A stretch of DNA of 64,000 nt, from NCBI RefSeq assembly GCF_009914755.1, contig NC_060948.1; one strand, 5' to 3'. This document shows positions 11,125-34,493 of this stretch, piece by piece (the stretch's first letter is position 1; each line of letters opens with the position of its first letter). The notes below the pieces were generated by a model. It was given only the letters and a program-made list of their open reading frames with translations, searched no databases and was not told the origin of the DNA. The position numbers and the translations under genes are program-made. This stretch comes from the human T2T-CHM13v2.0 reference genome, Homo sapiens.

Positions 11125-12350
11125 GCACTGGGCTCCAGGCTCCCCCAACAGACTTCAGGCAAACGGCGCCAGGAGCCGCGCCAACACCACCCGCCTCCCC
11201 CCGCGGTCAATCAGTCGGAGGGCGGTGGGCGTCTCCCTGGGCGGCACCAACCCAGGTTGGCCTGCAGTCCCAGCCTCCTGGGGTAACCCTCCTCTGAAAA
11301 GCCCTTGGAGCTTGTGCCAGGTAGCGCTGCGTCCAGGCACACGTGGGCTGCGTGGCCTTTGGAATTGCGGGCATGGGAGACCTGTGCCCTAACTGACATC
11401 CTGAATGTGGCAAATCATTGACCCACAAGGAGCACATGAAACATCTCATTTCATTAGGCAAGCCAGGTAGATGATACGGAATATTGCAGATCCAGAGGAG
11501 AACTCTCTCTGGCTGCTGGGGCGAGGGCAGTGGGGGTGGCCTGGGGAAAGTGGGTCGGGGCCGACGCTAGGGAGGAAAGTAGCCGGGTTATGCTTGGGTG
11601 GAAGTCGTCGCCTCTAGAGGCCAGAACCCCGGCAAGCGCTCTCGCAGGTCGAGGCAAATACAGGCTCCGCGTACCATGCTTCCTCCGTGAGGATGCTGTA
11701 CTCCGGGGAGCATTCCAAAGTGCCTCTCGTCCTATGCCCTAGGCACACCGGAGACCAGCCGCCAGGTTGGCCGTCGATATCCTGCGTGCACACAATTGTA
11801 CGCTGCCTTGCAGACCTAGAGGCTCCCGCACGTGCAGCAGCGGCTGCGGTGCCTGCTGGTGGGGCTCTGCAAGCCCAAGGCCTTGGGCTGTGGCTCCTGA
11901 GCTCCTGTGCGCAGTTGACCCTGCTGGGGACCTGAGCCCCAGGTCAAGTGCGGCGATCTGCGGGCCCAGCCGGGCTTTTCAGGAAACCTGCGTCTACGTA
12001 CCTGTGGGACTAGGTTCTCAGCAGGGCGAGGTCTGTGGGCCTTCCGGGGAGCGGGCCTCCTGGGGAGCGGCCCCAGAGCCTAGTGGTGCCGGGGATGGGC
12101 TGGGCTGCACAGACCGGGGTCTGCGGGAGTACCCAGGAGGGCACAGTGTTCAGGCGGGAGGCTCTGCTGGAGAGGACGGCCCGGGTACAGAGCAAGGAGG
12201 CGGCCTTGAAAGAGGAGGCGGTGCTGATGGTGGAAGACATAATGGCTGAGAAGGAGGTGGTGGTTAAGGAGGAGACCAATGTGTAGTGGCAGAAGGAGGA
12301 CCAGCGGGCACAGCCTGGCCCTGGACCCAGCAGAACCGGGCCGTGAATGG
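10540..12350. promoter_or_regulatory. CpG island and candidate bidirectional promoter between the divergent TSPY copies
   Basis: GC- and CpG-rich block in an AT-rich window, spanning both oppositely oriented exon 1 sequences. Promoter activity is inferred, not shown. Confidence 0.65.
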
Positions 12351-15050: not shown

Positions 15051-15436
15051 TAATTTCTTAGAATATTGAAAAAGCCAATTTAAATACAAAGAAAAATGGT
15101 TTGTTCATAATTGTATGCAAAACCTGCGGAAGGATCCATTTTCCATTACAAATCTTATGTGAGACTTGAAGTATTTATCAAGGTTTAAGATACATTTTTA
15201 TTGTTCTACTCTTGGCAAATTTTATGATCATTTTTGCAATACAGGAACATGGGCTCTAGAAAGTTTTTGAGGGACTTTCAGCTTCTTTTAGAGTACTTAG
15301 TTGTAAATTTTGAATGGTTTTCCCCTGTGGTTCTTTTCAGTTTACTATTTGTACTTTATATGCAAAGTGTTAAATTTGTTTTCTTATCTGCCCATTCTGG
15401 AACTTTTGTTTTCAAGAATTTTTTTTTTTCTGTTAG

Positions 15437-15815
<379 letters not shown>

Positions 15816-16426
15816 TCATTTGTTGTTTACGTATTTTAATCCTTGATCTATTTTCTTCATGTACACATATTTTAGAGTTATTGAAATCATATATTTTACT
15901 TACTTAATACTTTAGTAGGATTTTAAAAGTCATGTCTTCATTCACTAAATACAGTATTGTGAATAGGTTAAACCTTGTATAGTATTGTCATTCTGACTTC
16001 CATAAATTATTCAAGAACTCTGATACTGTTTTCTCCCACCTGAGAAGAACATGCAGATAGTTATAAAAAATTGTGTGAGTGGGTAGGTATGAGCATTTAA
16101 TTTGAAGGAATAGTAAAGTTCACAAACACAAGTTCACATTTGTATTTTGCATCACTTTGAAAATTTTATTTGCTGACATATGAAATTCTGTATTCGCCCT
16201 CATGTTAAATATACACTTTTGAATCAATTTCAAGAATGAAAATAATCCAAGGCCAAGCATTAGTTCAGGAAGTAAGTAGAAAGCAGTTGTTATGTAGAAA
16301 AAGCATATTTATTGAAGGTATATTTAGAGAGATTTTAGGAGGCTTAAGTCAATATTTTGTTTTTATTGCTCTGGTGTTTTATCATACTATGACCAGACTC
16401 TAGCATCACTAGTTATAGTCACAAGG

Positions 16427-16699
16427 CTACGAAAGTCTCAGAGGTGCAGTAATTATTATTGAAGTAAGTGGCACTGTGGTTGGCTGCTTAAGGAGACTAG
16501 AGGACTTAGGAGTTTACACCCAAGGCATAAAGGCCTAGTTTAGTGGGTGGCCTTCTTTTGCTGAAGTAGATATGACCCAGGAGAGGTGTGAACTCACTGT
16601 AGTAGCTAGGGCTTTGAGACTATTGAAGCTTATTTGTCTCCAACTGCCATTGCCAGATATTGGTCTACAAATAACGGCACTTCCTAGACTCACTGACTC
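16427..16699 (-). pseudogene. Protease pseudogene terminal exon (domain 2 Ser exon and C-terminal tail)
   Basis: 'tttacag|' then ESVSLGSAVICRPISGNGSWRQISFNSLKALATTVSSHLSWVISTSAKEGHPLN*AFMPWV*TPKSSSLLKQPTTVPLTSIIITAPLRLS*. This follows the 'GDSGGPLVC...W.Q.G..S...T.VS.Y..WI' pattern. Confidence 0.8.
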
Positions 16700-17277
16700 C
16701 TGTAAATTCAAACGTAGAATTTGGATTTAAATCCCTATTCCAACTTCTTAAACTTAGATCTAATAAATGGATAAAAAATATGCATTCAGAAGAAAGTGAG
16801 ACATCAGGTAACTACATAAGTAAATCATCCTGATGAAATACATTCAAAAGTATTACTACAAAAAATCACTGAAGATTAAACTTTAAAAAAGTTATTTAAT
16901 TAGGGAAATAGGAAAAGGTTAGACTCATTTTAAACTCTGAGGTGTAAAGATACTATTATTAGAATATGAGAATTATATAAAATGTCTAATTTGTTTCAAG
17001 GGCAGCATGCCAGCAATTTAGCATGGCTAGAGATTAGTGACCCATGTAAGAAAACTCAGAGATTAACAACAAAGTGTTTTCAGAGATTTTTTCTGCAATT
17101 GAAGACTTTTAAAATGGTTTCCTGTTAATCAATGATTCACTTAAATTTATCATTTAGGCATATGCTGTATACCCTTGTATATAGGAACAAAGTTATAGTT
17201 TCTATCACTATAGAACTACTATAAAACTAGTTACTATAGTTTTATAGTAGCTAGAAAAAAAATTTTTGACTGTGTAC

Positions 17278-17411
17278 CACATTTGCATTAGAGTCTTTGG
17301 CCTCAGTAACAAAGCAAACAATGGAGCTGCCTATGTCAGAATCCAGGTGGGCACAGATGGAAGCTTGCATTAGTTGCGTCTTTAACATTTCTGGATTCTC
17401 ATAAGTCTCCC
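17278..17411 (-). pseudogene. Protease pseudogene exon (domain 2, Cys-Cys loop exon)
   Basis: 'tttttctttctag|' then GETYENPEMLKTQLMQASICAHLDSDIGSSIVCFVTEAKDSNANV, then '|gtacac'. Phase 1 to 0, open frame. Confidence 0.78.
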
Positions 17412-17595
17412 CTAGAAAGAAAAATGGAGTATAGCTATCCTATAGAACATATTTTACAATTAAACACTAAGTATTGAGATAAAACCATGAATTGTCTATC
17501 ACTGTATCATTATTACTTTAAACTTGTATGTATAACTTATAGAAAGAAATTCAGTTTATAGCCAATAATTTCATTCTCTTTCTAGTGACTTCATT

Positions 17596-18200
17596 TTTTT
17601 TTTTTTTTTTTTTTTTGAGATGGTGTTTCACTCTGTCACTCAGCCTGGAATGCAGTGGCCTGATCTCACTGCAACTTCCACCTCTTGGTTTCAAGCAATT
17701 TTCCTGACTCAGCCTTCTAAGTAGCTGGGATTACAGGCACACACCACCACTCCTGCCTAATTTCATATTTTTGGTAGAGATGGGTTTTCCCCATGTTGGT
17801 CAGACTGGTCTCAAACTCCTGACTTCAGGTTATTCGCTGGCCTCAACCTCCCAAAATGCTGGGAGTACAGGCATGAGCGACGACACCAGCCCCCTCTCTT
17901 TTTTTCTGAGACAAGTTATTGTGTGGTCACACAGGCTGGAGTGCATTGGCACCACCTTCACATGCTGCAGCCTCAAACTCTCAGTCTCAAGCTATCTTCC
18001 TGTCTCAACCTCCCACGTAGCTGGGACTACATGTGTGCAACACCACACCAGGCTATTTGTTGTTGTTGTTGTTGTTGTTCTTTAGTGATGAAGCCTTGCT
18101 ATATTGCCCAAGTGGGTATCAAATTCCTGGGCCCAAAGGATTCTCCTAGTTCAAGCTCCCAAAGTGCTAGAATTATAGGAGTGAGCCACTGCGGACAGCA
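17596..18200 (-). mobile_element. Two adjacent Alus (AluS-like 17,596-17,890; AluJ-like 17,897-18,200) in a protease intron
   Basis: Poly-T heads, Alu left and right arms, and (ttg)n in the second linker. Confidence 0.9.
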
Positions 18201-18647
18201 TCATCACTCTTTAATCACTTTCTAAATGCCACTCTTCAAAAGTAACAAGTAAATTTTACTTATGAAATTCTAAACGCCAAGTCAAGTTCAGTTTAATTTT
18301 CATAAAGAGGGAAAAACAAAACAAACAAAAAAACTCCTTTTTCCTTTGTTTTGAAGTCAGCAAAGAGTTGGAAAGCAAATCATCTCTACTTTAGTTTACA
18401 AAATTGACTGTACAGGGAAAGATCCTCATGTAATTGTTTTCGGATCTAAAATCCTATGAAGTTATCATCAGAGCCATCATCTTATAAAATGAAAACAAAT
18501 CTCCTATTGGGTCTCTTATGTGGATTAAATATCTTACACTTAGTAATATATACAATTGTGATTGTACTTCTTCCTTGAACCATAATATTAAAAATATGAA
18601 CCTCATTTTTTAGAACTGCTACCCAAATAAGAAAACTAACCACTGAC

Positions 18648-18894
18648 CTGGTGTAATAATTTGTGGCCCAGAGAGCCGGCATGCTGAACTATTCAGGTTC
18701 TTCAGATAGCCCAAGGGGGCTAAGAGCCAAATGGGAGTCTGGACATCTTGGAGGAGTAGTAATGCCAGGTCATTCCTTCTGCCCCACTGACCAACTGGAA
18801 CCTCTCATGCAATAGAATACTAGACACCTTCACAACTCTCAATAATGCCCCACGGTGCCTCAGGCCCAGAATCACAGCGGTGTCTTCAGGATTC
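18648..18894 (-). pseudogene. Protease pseudogene exon (domain 2 Asp exon)
   Basis: 'cacacag|' then NPEDTAVILGLRHRGALLRVVKVSSILLHERFQLVSGA-(frameshift)-RNDLALLLLQDVQTPIWLLAPLGYLKNLNSSACRLSGPQIITP, then '|gtcagt'. NDLALL corresponds to the trypsin NDIALL motif. Confidence 0.9.
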
Positions 18895-19252
18895 CTGTGT
18901 GCATAGGCAAAGATTTATTGTGGTACATTCATTAGAAAACCTGAACCTTACACGTACATCAGGCTTTCTAGCATATTTTTTAGTCATGATACACAAGGTC
19001 CCTAGCTCATCTTCAGAGAAATCAGAAATATATGAATAAATCCCACAGACAATGGGATTGCAGAGGAATTAACTAACAGAGGTACTAGTAAGCCACAGTA
19101 AAGCAATTTCTTTTCAGCCTAAAACAAAAATGATATCTGTAGAAGTGAGATGGTCATGCATTATTGAAGTGAATTTGGACACAGAAACCTTCAGCAATGT
19201 AATTATAGGATAATGAATTACAGGGTATTGGAAGAGGCAGGCACAATCTTAC

Positions 19253-19388
19253 ATGTTCCTGACATAGTGGGCAGCTGTGAGAACCCAAGAGCTACTAACT
19301 ACGGAACCACTGCAGACCTGACTGCCACAGCTGATGATCCCAGCCTACCAAGGCATGGCATATTGCAGAGAAATCTGATCTGCTGAAG
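19253..19388 (-). pseudogene. Protease pseudogene exon (domain 2 His exon)
   Basis: 'ttttctcctcag|' then SADQISLQYAMPW*AGIISCGSQVCSGSVVSSSWVLTAAHYVRN, then '|gtaaga'. WVLTAAH is the trypsin His motif; TAG at 19,345-19,347. Confidence 0.92.
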
Positions 19389-20283
19389 CTGAGGAGAAAA
19401 ATAAGCTAATGTGCTAATTTGAATAGAATTGCCATCTGTAGACCATTATTTAAAGTTTTAAATCCCTCCTATTTCTGCTAACCAAGTCAGCATTGAGAAA
19501 TATGACTAGCAAGGACAAACTTCTACCTCTTTTGTGTTTATGCATTTTTCTTGAAAATAAGTGTTCTTATTATCTTTCCAAGATCATAGTTTCTTTATGT
19601 CCTAGCTTAAGTTTCTTTAGTCAAAATACTGGGAGTCATTCCAGCTTTCTCCCCCATTGCAACATTTATTTATCTATGATTTTAGCTACTTAGAAGTCAT
19701 TGAAGTAGATAGGCAACAAAAAATGCAATGATTTGAAGCTATTAGATAAATAGTGAAAAATCTGGAGATAAAGCACCTGTCTCTAAATTAGAGAGGGCTT
19801 ATCTTCATAAACGTATAGTGTTCGTGAGATACCAATCCAATAGTTTAAATAGAAAATTCAAGTTTGAGTTTCAGAAAAGAGCTTATATTTTTGAAATGAT
19901 TTTAGAGTTCCTCAGAAAATTGAGTTGAAGCAATGCTCCTGAATATATATAGAGAGATAACCTGTCTATAGAAAGGGTAAGCAAGTAGAGATGAAATTAG
20001 AAGCATAACTAATATCTTACATGTAGTTTTCTTTGAATTAGACTTGGAGGATGTGAGCAAATAATTATGGCCTCCTTTATGTTTTAAATATATTATTCAC
20101 TGTAGCTATAGAAATAGGGGTAGCTATAAAATAGCTGTGGTTAAATGCACATTTAATTCATGAGACCAAAAGAGATCCCTCAATTTCCAAGGAAATAATA
20201 TTTTGAAGGATGGCCGGAAGTAACTTTTGGTGTTCAAGATATTCCTTCTTCTCCCTGGCATTCACACCCCATGAATTTGTCAA

Positions 20284-20417
20284 CTTACAGCCAGGCTCCC
20301 ACGTAGCTTTCTTGGCCTCCACACAAAAAGTGAATTCATTTAGTTTTGGGCAAAATTGGTTACAAGTGCTGACTTGTAGGATGCTCAGGTGCTGTTTCTG
20401 CATAATTCCAGGACTCC
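20284..20417 (-). pseudogene. Protease pseudogene exon (domain 1, Cys-Cys loop exon)
   Basis: SPGIMQKQHLSILQVSTCNQFCPKLNEFTFCVEAKKATWEPGCK (inside ORF 20158..20403) follows the 'LQ...V.I.....C.......MLCA......DSC' pattern. Confidence 0.82.
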
Positions 20418-20583
20418 TTGATAGAAAACAGAGAAGAGGTTTTTGTGTTTGTTTTCATACTTAGCCTAGATTAGAGAGAGAATATGGTGAAGAGAAAGAC
20501 AAATACTTTATTATTCAAGAGAGAATAATATTCTCTTTCCAAACATGCTTCTCTTTCATCCCACTGTCTTCTTCATTACTCAG

Positions 20584-20842
20584 CCCACATAAGGGACCAA
20601 CTAGATAGCCAACAGTCATATAGTTGTATAAATTTCTCCTGTTCCAGACTTTCCTTCAGGCATATAGGAAGGACCAGGGGTTGAAAATATGGTGGCTGCT
20701 TCAGGAAGATCAACCCAGGTCACAGAATCACTTGGAACCTAGGTAGGGTATGGCACAGTCAATGCTGACAGTCTGAGCTTGGGCAGAATCTAGAAGATGA
20801 TTAAGCTCCACTTGGACCAGGGCCAGGGCTGCTGAGTTTTTT
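20584..20842 (-). pseudogene. Protease pseudogene exon (domain 1 Asp exon), both splice sites mutated
   Basis: KNSAALALVQVELNHLLDSAQAQTVSIDCAIPYLGSK*-(frameshift)-GLIFLKQPPYFQPLVLPICLKESLEQEKFIQLYDCWLSSWSLMW. 'PICL...CW..W' is diagnostic. The acceptor reads ccctg (AG lost) and the donor reads ctgagt (GT lost). Confidence 0.88.
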
Positions 20843-20974
20843 CAGGGGAAAAAAAAGTCAAGAAAAAGTCTTATTATTTCTACATTTCAATTTGAATAAA
20901 GCCCTGGAGGTCACGTGAATCAGATGAAGTCCAGGTAAGCACTAAAGTACAAATACTCCTTTAGAAACTATTTT

Positions 20975-21213
20975 CAAGGATCATTTGAGACCAGGTAGGC
21001 AACATGATAAGACTTTATTTCTGCTGAAAAAAAATTAGCCAGATGCAATGGTATGTGCCTGTGGTCCCATGAACTCAGGAGGCAGAGGTGGGAGAACTCC
21101 TTAATCTTGGTAGTTTGAGGCTACTCTGAATCACGCCACTGCACTCCAGCCTGGGCAATAGAGCAAGACCCTGTCTCTATCTCTCTTTCTCTCTGTCTCT
21201 TTCTGTCACATAG

Positions 21214-21250
<37 letters not shown>
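20975..21250 (+). mobile_element. Partial AluJ-like element followed by CT and (CA)n repeats
   Basis: 'ggatcatttgagacc...aaaattagcc...ccactgcactccagcctgggcaatagagcaagaccctgtctc', with (ca)n at 21,215-21,250. Confidence 0.85.
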
Positions 21251-21252
<2 letters not shown>

Positions 21253-21335
21253 GGTAAATATATTCCTTTAGAATCTCAATGTTATTATTGCTTTATAATG
21301 ATATCTTAATCTTAAGATAAATTTCTTAGACTTAC

Positions 21336-21504
21336 ATAAAATTGACACATCTAGCTGTAGTAAGGAAATAGTGTTCATTTAGTATGGAGCCAGCACAGAA
21401 ATGGGAGACAGAACGTTGTACAGAAACTATTCAAGAGAATTCACCAATTTCTGACTCCCAGCGGTTGTGACAGTGGGTGATATGGCCAGGGCATAATCCA
21501 CACT
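21336..21504 (-). pseudogene. Protease pseudogene exon (domain 1 propeptide and His exon)
   Basis: 'ttccttctgcag|' then (E)CGLCPGHITHCHNRWESEIGEFS*IVSVQRSVSHFCAGSILNEHYFLTTARCVNF, then '|gtaagt'. It matches 'ECG...EA..GEFPW.VS.Q....HFCGGSIL...W.LTAAHC'; TGA at 21,431-21,433. Confidence 0.92.
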
Positions 21505-22060
21505 CTGCAGAAGGAATACACATGTGGAATAGAGTGAGATTAGTGTTACTACTATCCTATTTATAAAATATAATTTTAGGTTTTTAGGAATGTTCTTGGA
21601 AATTCAGTATCTTCAATTCTGAGAAAATACTTGGAAATATACATTATTCATGCTACAATTTTAGATATGCTACAGAGGTTATTTGGATACTTTCCCTTCA
21701 AATGATAATTTAATGTATATATAAATATATAATATATCTTATTATTGTATCCAAGATATTATAGTATTATCCAGTTGTGGGTGTATATATTCATATACTT
21801 CAAGTGGAATAATAAACCATTTCTAAGAAGTAAGACTATCTTAAAAATACTCTTCTCTGAATAGAATTGTGTTTATAAAACATAGCCCATAAATCCTGTT
21901 TGGCAAAAGTAAGATATTCTCTCAATATTTAGACATCTCTGCTGATTCATACAATAATCTAAATTTTGGTTTTGCAAAGGTTTGAGGACATAACCTCTGA
22001 TCTTACAAACTGTGGTTTTAGGGTTCAACAAGAGTCTTCGTAGCAAGTATATTAACTCAC

Positions 22061-25000
22061 ACATATGACTAGTCTAAAGGTGCCTGTGGTTTCATGAGAA
22101 ATAACAGCTGTCTTGAAGAGCCAGAAAGCCTGGAAACTTCCAGATTACAGCTAGTTGACACTCAACCGGGAAACATTGAGTTCTGATTGCTTAAGAGGTT
22201 TTTGTCCAGGATTGGGTCCAGATTGAAATCCAGGCATCAGGAGAAGTTGTTTTGTTGAAAGTGTGGCTGCAGCAGCATGCAAGGATGAAAAAGAATGAGA
22301 AATAATGGACTCTTCAGGAAATGTTGAGGAAGATATTTTCTGAAGAACATTAGTAGAAGAGGCTATGGATAGGAGAACAAGAGAGGAGACCAGAGGATAA
22401 ATAACTGAGCAAGATGGGAAAATGAAGAATGAAGGGAATGTACAAGAAGAAAAGACTGAACAAGAAGGGCACAGTGTACATGGAGATGGAAGAGAATAAG
22501 AAAGAGGAAGGAAAATGGAGGAAGAAAGAGAGATAAGAGAGGTACCTGGACATCAGGGCTTTCTTTTATCTGGATAATTTTTAATTTCCTGCCGTAGTGC
22601 TGGTAAACACTCTTCCAGGAAACCAAGTACTTGTACGCTGGCTCAACTGGAGAGAATTGATTTTATCCTGGCTTTCGGTGGCAGTTATCTCAGTTAACAA
22701 AGATAAAATACTGATCTGGGTAAGAAACAGTTTTTACTGGCAAAAAGAGCACATGTTTAGACAAGGAGCCAAAATGACTCGTTAATAGTGTTTCTCCATT
22801 AGGCTCAATTTCAGGAGGAGAAAATGATGCAATTATATCAGCCTTAAAATGGTTTATGGGTCTTAGTATTTCTGTTTCAGGCTGGATCCATGTTCTTACT
22901 TTTCCCGCTTTAAAAATAGCAAAGGATTCAATAATATCAGCTTCAGACTGGATACAGTGTCTGTCTGCTTGGGTTACAGGCAGTATCCAACATACGAGTG
23001 TTCTTCCTATAAGCAAGGTCCGTGTTTTGACTACTGGAGGTAGAATCTTGGGTCAGAATCTTAGTAAGAAGGTTTCAGACTGGATAAAATGGTGAATTAT
23101 GTCAACTTCCAGCTGGATCCAGGGACTGACTGTTTGAGATTTTGAATAAACCCATGATCTGCCTTTATTCATTTGAATGTAAAATGAAGATCTGACTATA
23201 TTAGTTTCCTGCTCGATCGAGGGTCTCACTGCTTGGGTTTCAAGGTGGGTCCAGGTTTGATATGTAGCAGCTCTTGGCTGAGTCCAGGTCCAAAATGTAC
23301 CAACTTCAGTCAGTGGCCAGGGAAAGAGCAGCTGACTTTCAGGATGAATCCAGGGTCTAACTGTATCACATTAAGTCTATAAGCAAGATGTGACTGTATC
23401 AATTTCAGTCATGTTTCAGGGCTTTATTCCTTGGCTTACAGTCCAAATTTGGAAAACTTCAGTTTCAGGTTGGTTCCAGGATCTTACTGAATTCATTTGA
23501 GTCTGGAACAGGTATCTTATCACTATATTGTCTTCAGGGTGGGTCCAGGGATGAATTTCAGAGTAAGTCCATGGTCTGATTGTAGCACGTACATGCTGAG
23601 TCCAGGAATAATTTATGCTAACTTGATTCTGGATCTAGGAGTGTGTCATTTGAGATCCAAGTTGGGTCCAGGGCCAAACAGAAGCGTTATGAGTTGGGGA
23701 CCAACATGTCACCATACCTACCTCATGCCACATCCTAATTGCTTGAGATTCAGGCTCAGTCCATTGCTCTATTTTATCAGTTGCAGAATGTGTCTCGTGT
23801 CTGACTGTATTGGTTTCAGCATAGATCCAAGGTTTCAGAACATCACCTTCAGACTGGGTCCAGGGTATGACTGCATTCTTTTCAGATTGGTTCAATGGGC
23901 GGATTATTTGCCATTCTGGCTTCATCCAGGTAGTAACTCTTTGAGAAGAAAGTTGAGTACCACTTCTTCTTACATTGTTTTGGGTCTGAAACCAAGCACT
24001 CAGAGTATTAATGTCAGGCATGGTCAAGCATTTTGCTGCCTGCATTTCAGCCAGATATAATAGTGTGTCAGACAATGATTGTATTAATGTTGCCTTGAGT
24101 CCAGGGGTGGATTGTGCCTGCTTCAGACCGGATCCATAGTTTTACTGTATGAGCTTCAGAAATGGTCTGGGATCTCATTGTACCTACTTCAGATTGGGTA
24201 CACAGGAAGAAGCCATCAATTTCAGACTGGATCCATGTTATAAATGTTGTAGTTCTCTGTTTGGCCCAGGATTCTATTTTACCAGGTCCAAAGGGAGTAA
24301 ACGTGCTCAATGTTTGAAATTCTGACTGAGCCCAAGGTTTTATTTTTTCTGTTCCAGTTTTAAACGAAGTTCTTTAACTTGAGCTTCAGGTTGGGACCAT
24401 GGTTTTGCTGCTTGAGGCACAGCCAGTATCCAGGATATAAGTGTTCCAAACTCAGGCAAGGTCCATTCATCGATATTTTCAATTTCATGATGTGTCCATA
24501 AAATAGATGCTTGATTTTCATCTTGGATCAAAAGTTGCGTAGTATAAGGTTAAGGCAGCAAGGAAACTCTATAAATATTTTAGCTTCAGGCAGTGCCTAG
24601 AGTTTCTTAGCTTCAGTTTTAACCATCATCCAAAATGAGCCCATATCACTCTGTGTATAAGAATTTGCATCTGGAAAATCATCATGAGTCCACTTTGTGT
24701 CTGTGGAAGCTGTGGCCTCTGTCCATGTGTTTACCACTGGAGACTCAGACTGAGATCATGGGGTGATTGATTTGGACACAGGTAGTGTCCAGGTTTTTCC
24801 TGCTGAAGGGATACCCTGGGTCCATGGTAACACTGAGGAAACTGCAGCCCATGCAGTTTCTCAGCCCATGCATGCCTCTGGATTTTCTGCTGAAGTTTCA
24901 TCATAGTTCCATGATATAAGTATATCAGATACAGTCTGTGTCCAGGTAATTCCTACTGGAGACTGGGCCAGAAGTCACAGTATAATTTTGTCAGATACTG

Positions 25001-28000
25001 GCTGTGTGGAGGTAATGACTGCAGAAGATTCAGCCTGCACCCACAGTGCAACTATATCAGATACAGAATGTATCCAGGGATTTGTTGCTAGAAGTAAAGC
25101 TTTGATCCATGGGGTGACTTGGTAGCTATTGCCTCTATCCATGGATTGACTGCTAGAGATACAGGCTGGGTCCACAGTGATAATGTATTAGATATAGGCA
25201 GTATCCAAGGATTTACTGCTGAAAATTCAAATTGGATCAATCCTATGTATGTCTCAGATACAGGCAGGATCCATGTAATTAATGCTGCAGATTCAGTTTG
25301 GGACCATAATCTGATTGTATTAGATGAAGGCTGTGCCCAGGCCTTTACTGTTGCAGATACAGCCTGTGCCCAAGTTGTAGCTGTATAAAAAACAGGCTGT
25401 GTCCAGGGATTTATTGCTGGAAATTCAGCCTGGGTCCAGGGTATAACTTTGGAAGCTACAGCCTCTGTCCAGATATTTACTGGTAGACATTCAGTTTGAT
25501 GCCCTGCTTTAAGTGTACCATGTAAACTTTATGAAAAGAAGATTAATGATGGAGTTACAGGCTGTGTACACACTGTGAATGTATCAGCAACAGACTTGGT
25601 CCATGGATTTACTGCCAAAAATTCAGTCTGTGTCCATGGTATGACTGTGTCAGTCTCATCCTGTAACAGAGGACTTGGGACTGAACATTCAGACTCTGTC
25701 CAGATATTTACAATTAGAGACTTAGACTGCATCATGGGATTTACAGCTGGAAATTCAGCCTCATTCCAAGTGTTTACTTATAGATATTTTGTTTAGGTCC
25801 ATAGTGTGACTGTATCAGGTACAGGTTGTAACCAGAAATTGATTGCTGGTGATTTTGTCTGTGTCCATGTTATGAATATATCAGCTAGAGCCTCTCTCCT
25901 GAGAATTATTATTAGAAATACATCCGTGTACTGCAGTGTGTCTATATGAGTTACAGCCAATGCTAAGTGACTTATTGCTGGCAACAGATCCTGGGTCCAT
26001 GATGTGACTTTCTCAGTTTTAGACTGTCTCCATAGATTTACTACTACATAAACATTCTTAGCCAATGGTTTCACTCTATCAATAAGTATATGTACAGAGA
26101 TTATTGATTTTAGAATGAGCCTGGGTCCACAGTAAGACAATTTCTGTTTCAAGCTTTGTGGAGGGATTTACTCCTACAGGTTCATCTTGGTTCTGTGGTA
26201 TAACTGCAGCAGGTATAGGCTGTGTCCAGTCATTTACTTTTGGAGATTCAGTCTTGGTCTACTGTATGAAGGTATCAGTTTCATATTGTTTCCAGAGATT
26301 TATGGCAGGTAATTTGACTTGGTTCCAGAGTTTGATTGTATAAGCTATTGCCTGTGTCAAATGCTTTACTGCTGAAGATTCATCTTGGTCCCATGGTTTG
26401 ATTCTATAAGATAGATACTGTGTAAAAGGATTCATTGCTGGAGAGTCATCCTGAATCCACAGTATAGTACTATCACCCAGAGACTGCCCAGGGATTTACA
26501 GCTGAAAATTCAGGCTTGGTCCACAGCTTGTCTGCATCAGCTGTTGTCTGTGTCCATGAATTTACTGCTAGAGAATTAACCAGGATCCACTCTGTGACTG
26601 TATACATTTCAGACTTTGTCCATGCATTTCCCTCTTTAAGTTCAGCCTAATTCCTTGGTAGGACCATATCAGCTGTAGCCTCTCTCCAGGCATTCATTGC
26701 TGGAGTTTCACCCAGAATCCATGTTTGAGTCCAAGATACTGGTGGATGTTCAGGGTGGGTCCATGATAGGAATATATCATGTGTCCAGGGACTTACTCCT
26801 AGAGTTTCAGCCAGAATCCATGTTGTGAGTATATCAGTTTCAGACTGTTTCCAATGATGTAATAATAGCGATTCAGCCTGGATACACATTATTATGACTG
26901 TATCAGATATAGGAGAATATATTCATGAATTCATCACTAGTGATTCATCATTGGTCCCTAGTGTGATTATATCAGTTACCTACTGTTTCCAGGAATGTAT
27001 TGCTGGAACCTCAATCTGGGTTCACAGTGTTATTGCCTCAGTATCAAACTGTATCCAGTAATTTACTGCTGGCAAATAAGCCATGGTCCACAATGAGACT
27101 GGATTAAATTCAGATGGGAGTAAGTTATTTCCTTCTAGATATTCAGGCTGCAATTTTTCCATGGATTTATTGGTGGCATTTCATCAAGGGTCAATGGTAT
27201 GACAGTTTCAGCTACAGTTTTTGCCCAGAGATTCACTGTTGTAAATCTATCCTGGATCCATGGTGTGACTGTCTTAGCTATACGAATATGTCAAGGGAAA
27301 TAAGGCTGGAAATTCTTCTTGGTTCCAACATGTGACTTTATCAGATACAGAATGTGTCCAGAGATTCACTGCTGGAGATTTGGCAATAGTTCACAGTATG
27401 ATTGGATCAGTTTCAGACTGTCTTCAGGATGTTAATTTTTGAAATTCAGCCTTTGTCCATGTTGTGACTGTATCTGCTAACATCTTGGTCCAAGAGTTTA
27501 CTATTGGAGTTTCAGTCTGGGTCCACAGTGGGACTGTGTGAGTTTTAGATTGTGTCCAGGGATTTAATTCTTGAGACTCTCCCTGCATCCATTGTGTTAG
27601 TACGGTAGCTTTACTTTGTACCCAGGGGTCAATTACACCAATGTCTTTCTGATTCCAGGGTCTCAAAGTGTCATCTTCAGCTTGGGTCCACGATCTAACT
27701 TTAACACTTTCAAACTTGCCCCAGAGTCTAAATGCATAAGCTTCATGTTGTATCCAGTCTCTTAACTTATCAGTCACAGGTTGGTTCCAAAACCTCAATA
27801 TTTCAGTTTCAGACTGTATCCAATGCTGATTTGTCAGAGTTACTGGTTCTCTCCACTGTGTGACTGTCTCTGCTTGAGATCAAAACAAAAGTTTGATGAT
27901 ATCAGCTTCAGTGTGATTTCGGGGTCTGGATCTATCACCTCCAGTTTGGGGCCTGGGTACCACTGTTTCCATCCCAGTTTGGGACCAGTACCTAACTGGA

Positions 28001-29534
28001 TCTGCTTCTGGTTGGGTCCAGTGTTTTTCTTTCCATTCTTGAGTCTGGGTTCTGGGCCTCAGTATTTTAAATTTATGCTGAATCCAAGGTCTCATTGTTT
28101 CCATTTCAATTTGTAACTGTTGTTTAATTGTATCAGCTTTCAGGTGAGTCAAGAGTCTTCCTGATTGAGTTTCTGACTAGATTCACGTTAGGACTATGAC
28201 TGTTTTAGGCTGACTTCAGGGTTTGATCATCTCAACTTTGGAGTGAATTGAGGGCTCAATTGCATTCATAATAGGATGTATTAAGATTCATGTCTGCATC
28301 AGGGGTTTCAGTAATAATAGCCACATGTTTACTCAATGGACTCAATCTATCTATTTGATTTGAGGGCCTCATTATACTGGTTTTCTGTTGTGTCCAAGCC
28401 CTAATATTGTCACCTTTTAACTTTGCACATGAAGAGTATGCAGTATAGAAGAAATCCAGAACTGAGTTGACTCAGGTTCAGTGAGAATCTAGTATCCATC
28501 TGTCCTTTCTATAATTTCTTGGGGATACAAATATATTCAACACTAGCTGACACCATGGTTCAAAGGTATGGGTTACTGTAGGATGCTGAGATCCATCTTC
28601 ATTGAGTGATCAATGAGTCCATATTTCAATTTTATTAACTATGAAAAGTACTGGTGGAATCTAGTTGTAAGTTGCTGGTTTTGCACCAGGGTTAACTCTA
28701 TGAGCTACATGATACTTTTGGTTTCTAGTACTCTCTTCACTGGATTTAATCTGCATCACTGTTCCTGTTTTATAAGCTAACAATTGTTTCTAAGTTTCAA
28801 CTTCAGGAGTAATTTCTAGCCAAGGTTTAGCTACAAGTTGTCCATGAGATGGAACATTAATAAATTGAACTTGAGATTGACCAGTATCCATCTTAACAGG
28901 AACTTGAGATTCACCTATCCCACTTGAAAAGAGAAACCAGGATGTACCAGCATTAACTAATGGTAGAGTATGAAGCCTAATTGTACTAGCTAATGTATTA
29001 ATCCAGAATCTTGCTGAATCAGTCACAGCTTAATATTTATAATCCATTGTATTTTTCTCAGGAAAATTCCAGGCTATAGGTTTAATATCTGTTTGGGAGT
29101 TCTGGAGTCCAGAAAAAAAAAGAAATATTGAGAAGTTTCCATTTCTGGGGTACTCCAGCATTCAGCTGTACCAGGATGATCCCGTGGTTTGGCAGCAGGA
29201 GAAATCCGGGATTGTACCATTGGGAATTTGCTAGCTGAGGAGAGGTGACCACTTTGAAAGTGTAATAGTCTATTGGCATGAAAAAATCTCTATTATTCTA
29301 ACCAAAAAAAAAAAAAAACATTCAGTGGGGGTTCCGGTGCTTTCTGTACACTGGGGAAGTGCTTAATCTTCTCCTCCTTATTTGTTCTGAGAATCCATGA
29401 AAGATCAAATTGTCAGAGCCTGTATTAGAGGTAACTGTATTTTGTGGACTATCTTCTACTCCAGGAGAAAAATTGCAGGGTAGAGAAAAAAATACCCCCA
29501 GTGGTTTCTGGGATGCCTTGATAAGCCATCTCAT
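22061..29534 (-). pseudogene. Decayed giant exon encoding ~11-aa Trp-periodic repeats (PWTQxExxxVx)
   Basis: Many minus-strand ORF fragments share one repeat, e.g. 27424..27798 'RFWNQPVTDKLRDWIQHEAYAFRLWGKFESVKVRSWTQAEDDTLRPWNQKDIGVIDPWVQ'. No transposon interrupts the 7 kb. There is a candidate donor GTGAGT at 22,060. The 5' end is either the ATG at 29,534 or an acceptor near 29,298. Confidence 0.8.
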
Positions 29535-29587
29535 TCAAGATATGTATTGGGCTGTCCTGATGACAAGAACGGGGTCATAACAGGCTT

Positions 29588-29661
29588 CTGAGGTATCACT
29601 AACCAGGCCTACTACTGAGGTATCACTGACCAGGCCTACTACTGAGGTATCACTGACCAGG
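29588..29661. repeat. 27-bp tandem repeat, ~2.8 copies
   Basis: 'ctgaggtatcact(a/g)accaggcctacta' starts at 29,588, 29,615 and 29,642. Confidence 0.92.
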
Positions 29662-29740
29662 CAGTGACTGCCAAAGAGGCAAAGAACAGGATGACCTTGC
29701 TGTACCTGAATGGTTGGAAACAAAGTTAACCATATATGTT

Positions 29741-30340
29741 AGAAATACACATAGATGTGTAGTATACATGTATTACAATATGTAATGCATAAATTACATA
29801 TACATGCAATACATATATATTAATTATAAAATATACAGATACATATCTTGTATATGTTTATGAATACTTATATCAATAAATTATATAGTTTATATGGCTT
29901 ATATATTAAATTAAAAGATACTAAACTATAAGTATAAATTTTACTTTTCTATCTCATGTACATTTCATATTACTTGATGGGCAGTAATAAATAATATATT
30001 GTACATACTTCAAGAGTTCCATATAACACTTAGGCATAAATAATTCTAACTGTGGTTAAAACAGTAAAATCAAGCACTAGAAGGAAATTAGAGGAAGGTT
30101 CTAAACAATACAAATTACCTACATACTCAACATCATTATCTGAATATTACTTATGCCTTTAGCCAAGCAGTCTTAGGCAAAGCACAACTTATACGATCAT
30201 GTGAAATGACTGTTTGTGTCACCTCCTCTGCCATTACATTTGTTGATGCCATCATTATTTGTTTAGTCTCTCTGTTTAATTCTGATGCCCACTTGCAGCT
30301 TGCAGTTTGTTCTCCTAGTAGCCAGAATTATACTCAGAGT
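29741..30340 (+). repeat. Direct repeat copy 1 (~600 bp), left of the L1
   Basis: Colinear with 33,168-33,743; shared blocks include 'gagttccatataacacttaggcataaataatt', 'caacatcattatctga', 'tcacctcctctgccattacatttgttga' and 'gaattatactcaga'. Confidence 0.9.
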
Positions 30341-33170
30341 AAACACTTATTGTAAAATCGACTACATAGTTGGAAGTAAAACAATCCTCAGCAAATGCGA
30401 AAGGATAGAAATCATAACAAACAGTCTCTCAGGCCACAGTGCAATCAAACTAGAACTCAGTATTTAAAAATTCACTCAAAACTGCACAACTATGTGGAAA
30501 CTGAACAAACTGCTCCTCAATGACTGCTGGGTACATAATGAAATGAAGGCAGAAATAAAGATGTTATTTGAAACCAATAAGGACAAAGACACAGCATACC
30601 AGAATCTCTGGGAAACATTTAAAGCAGTGTTTTGAGGGAAATATATAGCACTTTTAATGTCCAGAAGAGAAAGTAGGAAACATCTTAAATTGGCACACTA
30701 ACATCAACATTAAAAGAACTAGAGAACAAGAAAAGCAAAAGCAACAAATTCAAAAGCTAGGAGAAGACAAAAATAAATAAGATCAGAACAGAACTGAAGG
30801 AAACAGAGACATGAAAACACTTCAAAAAAATCAATGAATCCAGGAGCTGGTTTTTTGAAAAGATCAACAAAATAGATAGACCACTAGCCAGACTAATGAA
30901 GAAAAGAGAGAAGAATCAGACGTAATAAAAAATGATAAAGGGGATATCACCATTGATCCCACAGAAATACAAACTACCATCAGAGAATACTGTAAACACC
31001 TCTATGCAAATAAACTAGAAAATTTAGAAGAAATGGATAAATTCCTGGATGCATACACCCTCCAAAATCTAAACCAGGAAGAAATCGAATCTCTGAATAG
31101 ACCACTAACAAGTTCTGAAATTGAGGCAGTAATTAGGAGCCTATCAACAACAACAACAACAAAAGGTCGAAGAGTAGGTTGTTCACAGAAGAATTCTACC
31201 AGAGGCACAAAGAGGAGCTGGTACCATTCCTTCTGAAACTATTCCAAACAATAGAAAAACAGGAAATCCACCCTAACTCATTTTATGAGGCCAGAATCAT
31301 CCTGATATCAACATCTGACAGAGACACAGCAAAATAAGAAAATTTCAGGCCAATGTCTCTGATGAACATTGATGCAAAAATCCTCAATGAAACACTGGCA
31401 AACCAAATCCAGCAGAATATCAAAAAGTGTATCCACCATGAAGAAGTCACGTTCATGCTTGGGATGCAAGGCTGATTCAACATGCACAAATCAATAAACC
31501 TAATCCATCACATAAAGAGAATCAATGACAAAAACCACATGATTATCTCAACAGATCCAGAAAAGCCCCTCGATAAAATTCAACATACTTCATGATAAAA
31601 ACTGTCAGTGAACTAGGTATTGATGGAATGCATTTCAGAATAATAAAGCTACTCATGACAAAACCATAGCCAATATAATACTGAATGGCAGAACCTGGAA
31701 GCTTTCCATTTAAAAACCTGCCCAAGACAAGGTTACCCCCTCTCTCACCATTCCTATTCACCACAGTTTTGGAAGTTCTGACAAGGGCGATCAGACAAGA
31801 GAAAGAAAGTGTATTCAAAGAGAAAGAGAAGAAATCAAATTGTCTCTGTTTGCAGATCACAAGATTGTATATTTAGAAAATTGCACTGTCTCACCTCAAA
31901 ATCTCCTTAAGCTTATAAGCAACTTCAGGAAAGTCTCAAGATACAAAATCAATGTGCATACATCACAAGCATTCCTATACTCCAATAGCAGACAAGCAGA
32001 GAGCCAAATCACAGTCATCTCACACACACAGTTGTTACTAAGAGAATAAAATACCTAGGAAAGTAACTCACAAGGGATGTGAAGGACCTTTTCAAGGAGA
32101 ACTACAATCCACAGCTCAAGGTATAAGAGAGGACACAAATACGTGGAAAAGCATTCCATGCTCATTATAGGAAGAATCAATATCATGAAAATGGCCCTAC
32201 AGTGCAAAGTAATTTATAGATTCAATGCTATCACCATAAAGTTGCCATCTGACAAGGGATAACATATTAATCTGACAACAGACCAATATCCACAATCTAC
32301 AAAGAACTTAAACAAATTTACAAGAAAAAAACTAAACCAACCCATCAAAAACTGAGTGAAGGGTATGAAGAGATACTTCCCAAAAGAGGACATTTATGCA
32401 GTCAACAAACATGAAAAAAGTTCATCATCCCTGGTCATTAGAGAAACGCAAATCAAAACCACAATGAGATACTATCTCATGACAGTTAGAATGGCTATCA
32501 TTAAAAAGTCAGGAAACAACAGATGCTGGAGAGGATGTGGATAAGTAGGAACGCTGTTACACTGTTGGTGGGAGTGTAACTTAGTTCAACCACTGTGGAA
32601 TACAGTCTGGTGACTCCTCAAGGCTCTAAAACTAGAAATACCATTTGACCCAGCAATGTCATTATGGGTTATGTACTCAAAGGATTATAAATAATTCTAC
32701 TATAAAGACACGTGCACACTTACGTTTATTGACACATTGTTCACAATAGCAAAGACATGGAACCAACTCAAATGTCCATCAATGATAGATTGGATAAAGA
32801 AAATGTGGCACATATACACCATGGAATACTAAGCAGCCATAAAATAAGATTAGTTTATGTCATTTGCACGGACATGGGTGAAGCTAGAAAGCACCATTCT
32901 CAGGAAACTAACACCAGCACCGGAAGCCAATCACCACATATTCTCACTCATAAGTTGCAGTTGAACAATGAGAACACATGGACACAGGGAGGGGAATATC
33001 ATACACCAGGGCCTGCCAGGGGTGGAGGGCTAGAGGAGGTATAGCAGTAGGAGAAATACCTAATGTGTGTGACAAGTTGATGGGTGCAGCAAACCACCAT
33101 GGCAGGTTTATACCAGTGTAACAAAACCGCACGTTCGATACATGTACCCCAGAACTTAAAGTATATAAAA
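30341..33170 (+). mobile_element. 5'-truncated older L1PA (L1PA7/8-like) with an internal ORF2 deletion near 32,247
   Basis: Decayed ORF2 from 'catagttggaagtaaa'; the jump 'aagttgcca|tctgacaaggg' skips roughly 0.6 kb; 3' UTR 'gcagcaaaccaccatggca...cccagaacttaaagtatataaaaa'. Confidence 0.92.
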
Positions 33171-33743
33171 AATACATATAGACATATACTATACATGAAT
33201 TAAAATATATATAATGCATACATTTCATCTATATGCAATTCATATATATTATAAAGTATACAGATACATATATATGTTTTGGAACACTTATATTTATAAA
33301 TTAGCTATATAACAAGGGGTTTATACATACATTATAAAATATTAACTTAAACATATAAATTATACTTTTCTATCACATGCAAATTTTATATTACTGGATG
33401 GACAGTAAGAAATTTTACATGGTACATACCTAATGAGTTCCATATAACACTTAGGCATAAATAATTGAAACTCTGGTTAAAAGAGTAAAACCAAATACTA
33501 GAGGGAATTTAGAGGAAAGTTGTAACAATAAAAAATCACCTACATATTCAACATCATTATCTGACTATTACTTATGCCCTCAGCCAAGTATACGGTTTAT
33601 ACAGTCACATGAAACGACTGTGTGTATCACCTCCTCTGCCATTACATTTGTTGAAGCATCATCATTTGTTTGGTCTCTCTGCTTGATTCGGACACTCACG
33701 TGTAGCTTAGTTTGTTCTCCCAGTAGCCGGAATTATACTCAGA
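33168..33743 (+). repeat. Direct repeat copy 2, right of the L1; runs into an L2-like fragment to ~33,985
   Basis: See copy 1. It continues with L2-like 'ttttctctgcctggaattctcttcctcca'. Confidence 0.88.
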
Positions 33744-34493
33744 ATAAAATCAAAAGGATTTGTCTTTGATCTCACTTAAGAGTTTTCCTTAGTTCATCTT
33801 GCCACATGATGGCAGTATGACTATTTGCTTAATTCTAGTTTCAGAATTATTTCAATGGTTATTTTCTCTGCCTGGAATTCTCTTCCTCCAAATATATTCC
33901 TAGATTACTTCCTCAACGGTTTAGTCCTTGCTCAAGTAAAGCATTTTTAAAGACAAAGTGACTTCAAAACACTTCTTCCAACATTTTCCTGTCACCTAAT
34001 TAACTATGAACTGTAGTTGATGTAAAAATGTTTGTAAATGTGCTTATGTTAAATGTGCCAATGTTATTGATGGTACCCTTAGTACTTTTAGTCTTTGGAT
34101 CGAAAAGCAATAAAAGTAGAATAAGCCAAAAAACCGTCTTTTCAAAGTGGTGGTAGGCGGAGACCACCACCTTCTTCAAGAAACAGAAGCCCGTCAGCAA
34201 ATCTGAGATCTGCAAGAGGAAGTAGTGGAGGAAAAAGAGCGTGGCTGCCCTCACATGAAGAACACTTGGGTAATGTTTTAAAATATAAAGGTGGAACCAT
34301 GGGACTGAAAGAAAACAAGTTTGAAGGTATCAAAATTTCTCAATTTTATTTATTATCTTTATGAGCAGAATATTAATTATTGATAAGCACAATTATCTCT
34401 AATTACTAAAGGTGTATTATAAGAATGATTGAATTAATATCTAAAATTCATTTTAAAATTGTAACAACTTTGCATTGAAATAACACAGATTTC

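What the first reader, a model, noticed from the sequence alone, without database searches (positions are those of the whole stretch)
16308..29534. Hidden 13-kb fossil gene: giant repeat exon plus two tandem trypsin domains (PRSSLY-like)
Seen in the sequence: seven minus-strand exons that the ORF track almost entirely misses (21,504-21,336; 20,842-20,584; 20,417-20,284; 19,388-19,253; 18,894-18,648; 17,411-17,278; 16,699-16,427). They carry the motifs HFCAGSILN/LTTARC, PICL..CW, WVLTAAH, NDLALL and GSAVIC..W in S1A order with mostly compatible phases. A ~7 kb repeat exon precedes them and AATAAA follows. Established, from recall: PRSSLY is a Y-linked testis serine-protease-like gene with a huge first exon, related to PRSS55. 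Inference: this is a nearly full-length dead PRSSLY whose ancestral protein exceeded ~2,500 aa. It may be unannotated at this locus, although the gene family itself is known.
Basis: partly seen in the sequence, partly recalled or inferred. Interest (0 to 1): 0.9.

Follow-up and report, generated by a model that had tools for sequence, protein, structure and literature searches.

The report
Dead PRSSLY gene copy on Y
This stretch of the human Y chromosome is a decayed, partly truncated duplicate of PRSSLY, a testis protease-like gene that many other mammals still keep intact; human PRSSLY pseudogenes are already published, so it is a real but ordinary, unannotated relic.

Summary
They also align to the 3' end of a giant exon, 29705-22085 (7,621 nt). 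That exon carries a tryptophan every 11 residues, as in intact orthologues.

Intact orthologues also have two tandem trypsin-like domains after the long ORF. Both domains lack a full catalytic triad.

The locus is dead. Reading through the giant exon needs about 16 stops and 30 frameshifts. The protease exons carry further stops, frameshifts and broken splice sites. A 0.9-kb deletion removed the last exon of the first domain. The 5' exons are missing.

Hughes et al. 2022 (PMC9178871) already report transcribed PRSSLY pseudogenes on the human Y. Their human model matches a different, roughly 87%-identical copy at 10.24 Mb. This window holds one of at least 17 dispersed Y copies. It has an identical inverted twin at 10.15 Mb. 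Its last two exons also recur in at least 42 TSPY array units.

Exons and introns have diverged equally among the copies, which indicates neutral decay. Verdict: a new, unannotated member of a known pseudogene family, of low to moderate interest.

The parts
29706..34003 (-). Remnant of the intron upstream of the giant exon. It is collinear with the published copy at 10.248-10.2515 Mb. It holds two dispersed repeats, about 30343-31500 and about 32270-33170. Homology to other copies ends at about 34003 (copy B) and about 34493 (copy D), so the gene is cut off here.
   Evidence: no coding match upstream
22085..29705 (-). Giant exon of 7,621 nt. The acceptor is ttcag|GTACAG at 29706/29705, and the donor position reads GC at 22084-22083. 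Its body is an 11-residue tryptophan-periodic repeat. It is heavily decayed.
   Evidence: about 16 stops plus 30 frameshifts; 44 of 82 W-W spacings equal 11
29535..29705 (-). Start of the giant exon. It encodes the C-terminal piece of the N-terminal trypsin-like domain (VQQGHPVLC...YDPVLVIRTAQYIS). It ends in a TGA (29537-29535) where orthologues have Trp.
   Evidence: P0012: E 7.6e-39, 53% identity
29588..29662 (-). In-frame 27-bp tandem repeat (2.8 copies) inside the domain remnant. Orthologue proteins lack it, showing a 14-residue gap in the alignment.
21335..21505 (-). Exon B1 of the first downstream trypsin-like domain (...EFS*IVSVQ...HFCAGSILNE..LTTARC). The TGG-to-TGA stop is private to this copy and its twin.
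20588..20841 (-). Exon B2 (..PGLIFLKQ..PICL..YDCWLSSWSLM). It has a 1-bp deletion with a frameshift near 20731/20719. The acceptor AG has become TG, and the donor GT has become CT.
20284..20417 (-). Exon B3 (SPGIMQKQHLSILQ...). The donor GT has become TT.
20190..20204 (-). Junction of a deletion of about 0.9 kb, at about 20197. It removed exon B4 (the 'GDLGAPLVC' exon, sheep aa 1461-1553) and part of the next intron.
   Evidence: 900-917 extra bases at this point in 3 of 3 copies compared; the exon is matched in 7 of 10 copy sequences, but not in this copy, its twin or the TSPY unit
19252..19410 (-). Exon C1 of the second trypsin-like domain (PW*AGIISCGSQVCSGS..WVLTAAHY). It has a CAG-to-TAG stop, and the Cys after the His has become Tyr.
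   Evidence: (Pfam E 1.5e-5)
18643..18893 (-). Exon C2 (NPEDTAVILGL...RNDLALLLLQ...). It has a private 1-bp deletion with a frameshift at 18780/18777.
17278..17412 (-). Exon C3, an open frame with both splice sites intact.
16427..16699 (-). Exon C4 (..LGSAVIC..GSWRQI..). It has two private stops. The terminal TAG sits at the orthologues' stop position.
16308..16367 (-). Two AATAAA motifs, 60 and 114 nt past the stop. They are possible poly(A) signals, but the evidence is weak.

Best explanation
The interval is a non-functional, 5'-truncated, duplicated copy of the Y-linked gene PRSSLY.

In species where the gene is intact, it encodes three parts in order (shown):
- an N-terminal trypsin-like domain;
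- a very long spacer with a tryptophan every 11 residues, encoded in one giant exon;
- two tandem trypsin-like domains.

Neither downstream domain can be a serine protease. In the dog protein, the first has His57 changed to Arg, Asp102 to Pro and Ser195 to Leu. The second keeps His and Asp but has Ser195 changed to Pro. Any ancestral role was therefore binding or structural rather than catalytic (inferred).

In the human lineage the gene died. The block PRSSLY-TSPY was copied around the Y, and each copy has since drifted neutrally. This copy kept the giant exon and seven of the eight downstream exons. It lost the promoter-proximal exons at a duplication junction near 34.0-34.5 kb. It lost exon B4 to a 0.9-kb deletion. 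It then collected its own stops, frameshifts and splice-site changes.

This copy is identical to an inverted twin at 10.15 Mb. That fits arm-to-arm gene conversion or a recent duplication of an inverted repeat (inferred). The copy does nothing as a gene. Any transcription would be incidental.
For: Exon-by-exon homology to intact orthologues: E down to 1.7e-32, 58-89% identity.

The best database matches include 'TPA_inf: PRSSLY [Peromyscus eremicus]' and 'serine protease 55-like' records. 10 of 11 candidates passed at E <= 0.01.

Two probes taken from the first 400 nt of the 'Human (model)' sequence in Additional file 9 of PMC9178871 hit the window with 1 and 2 mismatches. They hit exactly only at 10,244,000-10,244,156.

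Decay:
- A best-path read-through of the giant exon needs about 16 stops and about 30 frameshifts.
- The protease exons carry 4 stops, 2 frameshifts and 4 changed splice sites.
- Exon B4 is deleted.
- No match to the first roughly 195 residues of full-length homologues lies upstream of 29705. These exons survive only at 10.2539-10.2568 Mb, plus one exon in the four copies at 22.79, 23.46, 25.30 and 26.91 Mb.

Neutrality: exon identity equals intron identity between paralogues. Examples are 0.880 against 0.885 for the 7.35 Mb copy and 0.907 against 0.901 for the 6.18 Mb copy.

The twin is 100% identical over 3,151 bases.

Hughes et al. 2022 state that the human loci are pseudogenes, transcribed at low level and with no ORF in any transcript (section 5 read; Additional file 3 passage).
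Against: Nothing here measures transcription of this particular copy. The paper's RNA-seq values (0.13-0.17 TPM in human testis) were computed on the other copy. Reads could cross-map between copies.

All four domain-C splice acceptors and all three donors are intact, and exon C3 is open. A spliced non-coding transcript is therefore not excluded.

The lesion count in the giant exon comes from a heuristic path, not from an alignment to an orthologue.

Only 400 nt of the published human model could be seen, because the supplement is cut in the held copy.
Confidence: 0.93

Rival explanations
1. This is the original (orthologous) human PRSSLY locus, the one already described in print, rather than a secondary copy.
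For: It has the longest giant exon seen among the copies compared and a complete second domain.
Against: Both probes from the published model match exactly at 10.244 Mb and mismatch here. The repeat exon here is 87% identical to that copy. Only the 10.24-10.257 Mb copy keeps three upstream exons of the N-terminal domain. Homology to that copy stops at about window 34003, some 2.4 kb short of where its next upstream exon lies.
Confidence: 0.03
2. The locus still has a function, as a spliced non-coding RNA or a short protein from the better-preserved second domain.
For: Domain-C splice sites are intact, and exon C3 is open. Hughes et al. report low-level transcription of the human pseudogene.
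Against: There are stops in C1 and C4 and a frameshift in C2. Native 5' exons are absent, so presumably the promoter is too. Exons are no better conserved than introns among copies.
Confidence: 0.04
3. It derives from an autosomal trypsin-family gene, for example PRSS55 or a multi-domain TMPRSS, copied to the Y, and not from PRSSLY.
For: Automatic names of some orthologues read 'serine protease 55-like' or 'transmembrane protease serine 9-like'.
Against: The locus keeps introns and the PRSSLY-specific giant exon. Its domain B carries the PRSSLY signature LTTARC seen in all 18 eutherian sequences of Additional file 5 (read by eye). All 80 of 80 listed genome matches of a dog PRSSLY-type protein are on the Y.
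Confidence: 0.01

Closest known systems
Human PRSSLY pseudogene as modelled by Hughes et al. 2022 (BMC Biol 20:133, PMC9178871)
   Same: It descends from the same gene and lies on the same chromosome. It has the same giant exon followed by trypsin-like exons, and no ORF. The repeat exon is 87% identical and the protease region 84-87% identical.
   Different: It is a different locus, at 10.232-10.257 Mb. That copy keeps three 5' exons and exon B4. This copy lacks both, but has a longer stretch of the giant exon aligned. Their protease-exon lesions differ, apart from one shared change, the GT-to-CT donor of exon B2.
Intact PRSSLY of other eutherians (for example Peromyscus eremicus TPA_inf PRSSLY, sheep LOC132658999)
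   Same: The exon order is the same, as are the two tandem dead trypsin-like domains, the LTTARC signature, the 11-residue Trp periodicity of the long ORF and the stop position.
   Different: Those are open reading frames of 1,041-1,823 aa or more. This one is broken throughout.
PRSS55 (autosomal, testis-specific; named the closest paralogue by Hughes et al.)
   Same: It has a trypsin-fold domain, and it is expressed in testis according to the paper (abstract).
   Different: As recalled, PRSS55 has a single domain and no giant exon. The relationship was not tested here, because one search listed no autosomal match.
Other Y-linked pseudogene families carried in ampliconic blocks (TSPY and RBMY pseudogenes, such as the TSPY19P and RBMY2GP that flank this locus)
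   Same: These too are dispersed and decayed, duplicated together with their neighbours, and have inverted-repeat twins (hub table).
   Different: Those families still have functional members on the human Y (recalled). No intact PRSSLY copy was seen among the 10 copy sequences examined.

Membership tests
PRSSLY (by descent) | Best protein matches are PRSSLY orthologues, across all protease exons | tested here: met
   a record named PRSSLY matches 7 of 7 exons at 51-82% identity
PRSSLY (by descent) | Very long single exon upstream of the conserved protease-like domain | tested here: met
   7,621-nt exon at 29705-22085. Its last 440 nt are 52% identical to sheep at protein level, E 5e-31. It has the same 11-residue Trp period as four orthologue proteins.
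PRSSLY (by descent) | Conserved domain with His57 replaced by Arg (LTTARC) | tested here: met
   the orthologue alignment to plasma kallikrein is
PRSSLY (by descent) | Y linkage in eutherians | tested here: met
   The window is on chrY (hub table). All copies found lie on contig C24.
PRSSLY (as a working gene) | Open reading frame, with testis-specific expression | tested here: not met
   The ORF is broken. Expression cannot be tested with these tools.
Peptidase S1A / Pfam Trypsin PF00089 | Significant match to the family profile | tested here: met
   Window frames score 25.4 bits (above the 20.6 cut-off) and 20.4 bits (just below it). Orthologues score E 1e-40.
Peptidase S1A (active enzyme) | Catalytic triad His57, Asp102, Ser195 | tested here: not met
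   Dog orthologue: domain B has R/P/L, and domain C has H/D/P. Window: domain B has R and its Ser exon is deleted; domain C has H, D and then L at the Ser position (read by eye).
Processed pseudogene (retrocopy) | No introns, with a poly(A) tail | tested here: not met
   Seven introns are retained, with recognisable splice sites.
PRSS55 clade | Closest human paralogue is PRSS55 | not tested
   One search returned only Y matches under a stricter filter. The claim rests on Hughes et al. (abstract).

The most novel reading that the evidence does not exclude
PRSSLY and TSPY were neighbours on the ancestral anthropoid Y, and that block seeded much of the human Y's repeated architecture. If so, PRSSLY fragments would be a common-origin marker for three structures: the TSPY array, whose unit would start inside a PRSSLY intron; the inverted repeats around it; and the four copies at 22.8-26.9 Mb.

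In the boldest form, PRSSLY was still lesion-free in its protease exons when it began to be copied. It would then have existed briefly as a multi-copy gene family before every copy died independently.
Probability: 0.12. Interest if true: 0.5.

Novelty: new member of a known kind. Interest (0 to 1): 0.25.

Why it matters
It matters little for function, because this is a dead gene.

It matters modestly for annotation. RefSeq has no row here, and the one published human model represents a different paralogue. RNA-seq quantification of 'the' human PRSSLY pseudogene can therefore be confounded by at least 17 related loci and at least 42 array units.

PRSSLY-derived sequence inside every TSPY repeat unit, and in several other repeated Y blocks, gives a handle for reconstructing how these blocks arose.

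Two points about the intact protein were not found in the main text of the 2022 paper: the three-domain, all-dead protease architecture and the strict 11-residue tryptophan period. The words 'catalytic', 'tryptophan' and 'repetitive' gave no hits there. Both points may help anyone studying the intact gene in other mammals.

Tried and rejected
- Pfam on the three minus frames of 29300-34300 found 0 of 3 frames with any family at E <= 10. No upstream domain is detectable.
- tblastn of the first 330 residues of four longer homologues (P0017, P0012, P0018, P0019) found only the start of the giant exon. The other hits were weak (E 0.002 to 0.5), lay on the wrong strand or inside the repeat, and were treated as noise.
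- A tandem-repeat scan found no DNA-level array in the giant exon apart from a 66-bp doublet at 26318-26450. The repeat is visible only as a protein-level period.
- The test of the closest autosomal paralogue failed. The whole-genome protein search fell back to a stricter filter and listed Y matches only.
The extent of upstream homology was instead read from coordinates.
- AATAAA as evidence for a 3' end was rejected as uninformative, with 153 occurrences in the window.
- Structure prediction, complex prediction and RNA tools were not used, because nothing in the question needed them.
- Additional files 5 and 9 of the paper are cut at 400 characters per sequence in the held copy, and figures are not held. 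The published human model could be compared only over its first 400 nt, and Fig. S1 could not be seen.
Full report
**What is there**

On the minus strand of window 16308-29705 lies the wreck of a multi-exon gene. I searched the large protein database with one clean 47-residue open frame from the window (20579-20719). Of 11 candidates, 10 passed at E <= 0.01. All named ones were mammalian. They included 'TPA_inf: PRSSLY [Peromyscus eremicus]', sheep LOC132658999 and several 'serine protease 55-like' records.

I then ran tblastn of four of these proteins back against the window.
- 21505-21335
- 20841-20588
- 20417-20284
- 19410-19252
- 18893-18643
- 17412-17278
- 16699-16430, followed by a TAG at the orthologues' stop position

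Against the sheep protein, per-exon identities are 58-89% and E-values reach 1.7e-32.

Pfam on raw frame translations finds the two 'His' exons only. One scores 25.4 bits, above the 20.6-bit cut-off. The other scores 20.4 bits, just below it.

**Two tandem domains are the norm**

Of the 9 orthologue proteins scanned, 9 carry Pfam Trypsin and 7 carry two stretches of it (the tenth protein, P0003, was left out).

The proteins are not enzymes. I aligned the dog protein to plasma kallikrein and granzyme M.
- The first downstream domain has Arg, Pro and Leu at the His57, Asp102 and Ser195 positions.
- The second keeps His and Asp but has Pro at Ser195.

The window copy shows the same LTTARC signature in the first domain. 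In the second it shows WVLTAAH, NDLALL and LGSAVIC.

**The giant exon**

The exon starts at an acceptor at 29706/29705, not at 29534. The 'M' at 29534 simply follows a TGG-to-TGA change. It ends at 22085, where the donor position reads GC. Its length is 7,621 nt.

Its first 170 nt encode the C-terminal piece of a further, N-terminal trypsin-like domain. A search with this stretch found 11 proteins at E <= 0.001. One is a 1,188-residue protein with three Trypsin stretches, and one is a 276-residue N-terminal fragment with one stretch. The intact gene therefore encodes domain A, a spacer, domain B and domain C, and the giant exon is not its first exon.

The spacer has a tryptophan exactly every 11 residues. 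In the window, 44 of 82 W-W spacings within uninterrupted segments equal 11, and 14 equal 22. The fraction of spacings at 10-12 is 0.45, against a shuffle mean of 0.08 and a shuffle maximum of 0.19. The same period is seen in the sheep, bat and deer-mouse proteins and in a fourth, unnamed database protein, P0012.

At DNA level there is no array, only a 66-bp doublet. A 27-bp in-frame tandem repeat lies at 29588-29662.

**It is dead**

- A best-path read-through of the giant exon needs about 16 stops and about 30 frameshifts. This is a heuristic count.
- The protease exons carry stops in B1, C1 and C4 (two in C4).
- They carry 1-bp deletions in B2 and C2.
- Splice sites are changed at the B2 acceptor, the B2 donor and the B3 donor. 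The giant-exon donor position reads GC.
- The sheep residues 1461-1553, which make up the 'GDLGAPLVC' exon of the first domain, have no match here. In 3 of 3 other copies compared, 900-917 extra bases sit at the point that corresponds to window 20197. The exon is matched, fully or in part, in 7 of 10 copy sequences examined, but not in this copy, its twin or the TSPY unit.
- No exon for the first roughly 195 residues of domain A is found upstream. Homology to other copies ends at window 34003-34493, next to RBMY2GP.

**It is known, but this is not the published copy**

Hughes et al. 2022 (PMC9178871) make several relevant statements. I read the outline and abstract, sections 5 and 12, found passages, and parts of Additional files 2, 3, 5, 6 and 9.
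- PRSS55 is the closest paralogue.

Two probes from the visible first 400 nt of their 'Human (model)' match exactly only at 10,244,000-10,244,156. They match this window with 1 and 2 mismatches. That copy alone keeps three upstream domain-A exons, at 10.2539-10.2568 Mb.

**Many copies**

Whole-genome searches found relatives only on the Y contig, apart from dispersed repeats in the upstream intron. The copies are:

| Location | Note |
|---|---|
| 10.148-10.163 Mb | Inverted twin, 100% identical over 3,151 bases |
| 10.232-10.257 Mb, with a partial twin at 5.915-5.921 Mb | The published copy |
| 6.17-6.19 and 9.95-9.97 Mb | A pair |
| 22.31-22.34 Mb | |
| 7.35 Mb | |
| 8.55 Mb | |
| 22.78, 23.47, 25.30 and 26.92 Mb | Four copies |
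| 7.94, 10.21, 23.03 and 23.23 Mb | Single-exon matches |

At least 42 units spaced 20.3 kb apart between 8.96 and 9.85 Mb also match. This is the TSPY array, named from its position and spacing as I recall them.

One array unit is collinear with window 17701-10008 at 80-82% identity. That span runs from the intron before exon C3, through C3 and C4, down past TSPY19P. PRSSLY and TSPY were therefore neighbours in the same orientation before the array formed (inferred).

A maximum-likelihood tree of 9 copy sequences groups this copy with the 6.18 Mb copy. It puts the 8.55 and 23.47 Mb copies on the other side of a midpoint root. Tip branches are about 0.05 changes per site. At a recalled primate Y rate of about 1.5e-9 per site per year, that means tens of millions of years. 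This is a rough inference.

**Neutral decay**

Most lesions in this copy's protease exons are private to it and its twin. However, exon identity equals intron identity in comparisons with the other copies. Examples are 0.880 against 0.885, 0.865 against 0.886 and 0.907 against 0.901. No constraint is visible since the duplications.

**Literature on the multi-copy state**

Three full-text searches found no paper linking PRSSLY to the TSPY array or describing multiple human copies. The 2022 paper's main text has no occurrence of 'TSPY'. The library lacks most subscription journals.

**Verdict**

The family and its human pseudogenes are already in print. This locus is an unannotated secondary copy.

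Noticed in passing
window 10008-17701; locus L033/L034 (G000:C24:9032000-9051999): Every 20.3-kb unit of the large tandem array at 8.96-9.85 Mb (the TSPY array, by position) contains the last two PRSSLY exons. Each unit is collinear with the window from the C2-C3 intron to beyond TSPY19P at 80-82% identity. At least 42 units were listed, most with that last exon as an open 97-codon frame.
   Followed up: partly
G000:C24:10253871-10256798 (loci L037, L040, L041): Only the copy at 10.24-10.257 Mb retains three exons of the N-terminal trypsin-like domain (residues 12-71, 81-150 and 128-195 of P0017). This is also the copy that the published human model matches exactly.
   Followed up: partly
window 22085-29705, and proteins P0004, P0006, P0008, P0012: The long PRSSLY ORF, described in the paper as having no identifiable domains, has a strict 11-residue tryptophan period in the human relic and in the four other mammalian proteins examined (sheep, bat, deer mouse and the unnamed P0012). 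The words 'tryptophan' and 'repetitive' do not occur in the paper's main text.
   Followed up: partly
proteins P0019, P0017, P0001: Full-length homologues carry three trypsin-like domains, not one. Neither of the two downstream domains aligned here has a complete catalytic triad.
   Followed up: partly
window 29588-29662: A 27-bp in-frame tandem repeat (2.8 copies, 97% matches) lies inside the remnant of the N-terminal domain. Orthologue proteins lack it.
   Followed up: yes
window about 30343-31500 and about 32270-33170: Two interspersed repeats, with about 85%-identical copies on many autosomes, sit in the intron upstream of the giant exon. They are shared with other PRSSLY copies, so they inserted before the duplications. 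Their families were not identified.
   Followed up: no
G000:C24:23464318-23464515 and three sister copies (22.79, 25.30, 26.91 Mb): The four copies in the distal long-arm repeats keep one exon of the N-terminal domain that all other secondary copies lack. They have lost the first roughly 2.3 kb of the giant exon.
   Followed up: partly
window 21215-21250 and 15491-15529: A (CA)18 microsatellite lies in the B1-B2 intron, and a (TG)19 lies downstream of the gene.
   Followed up: no
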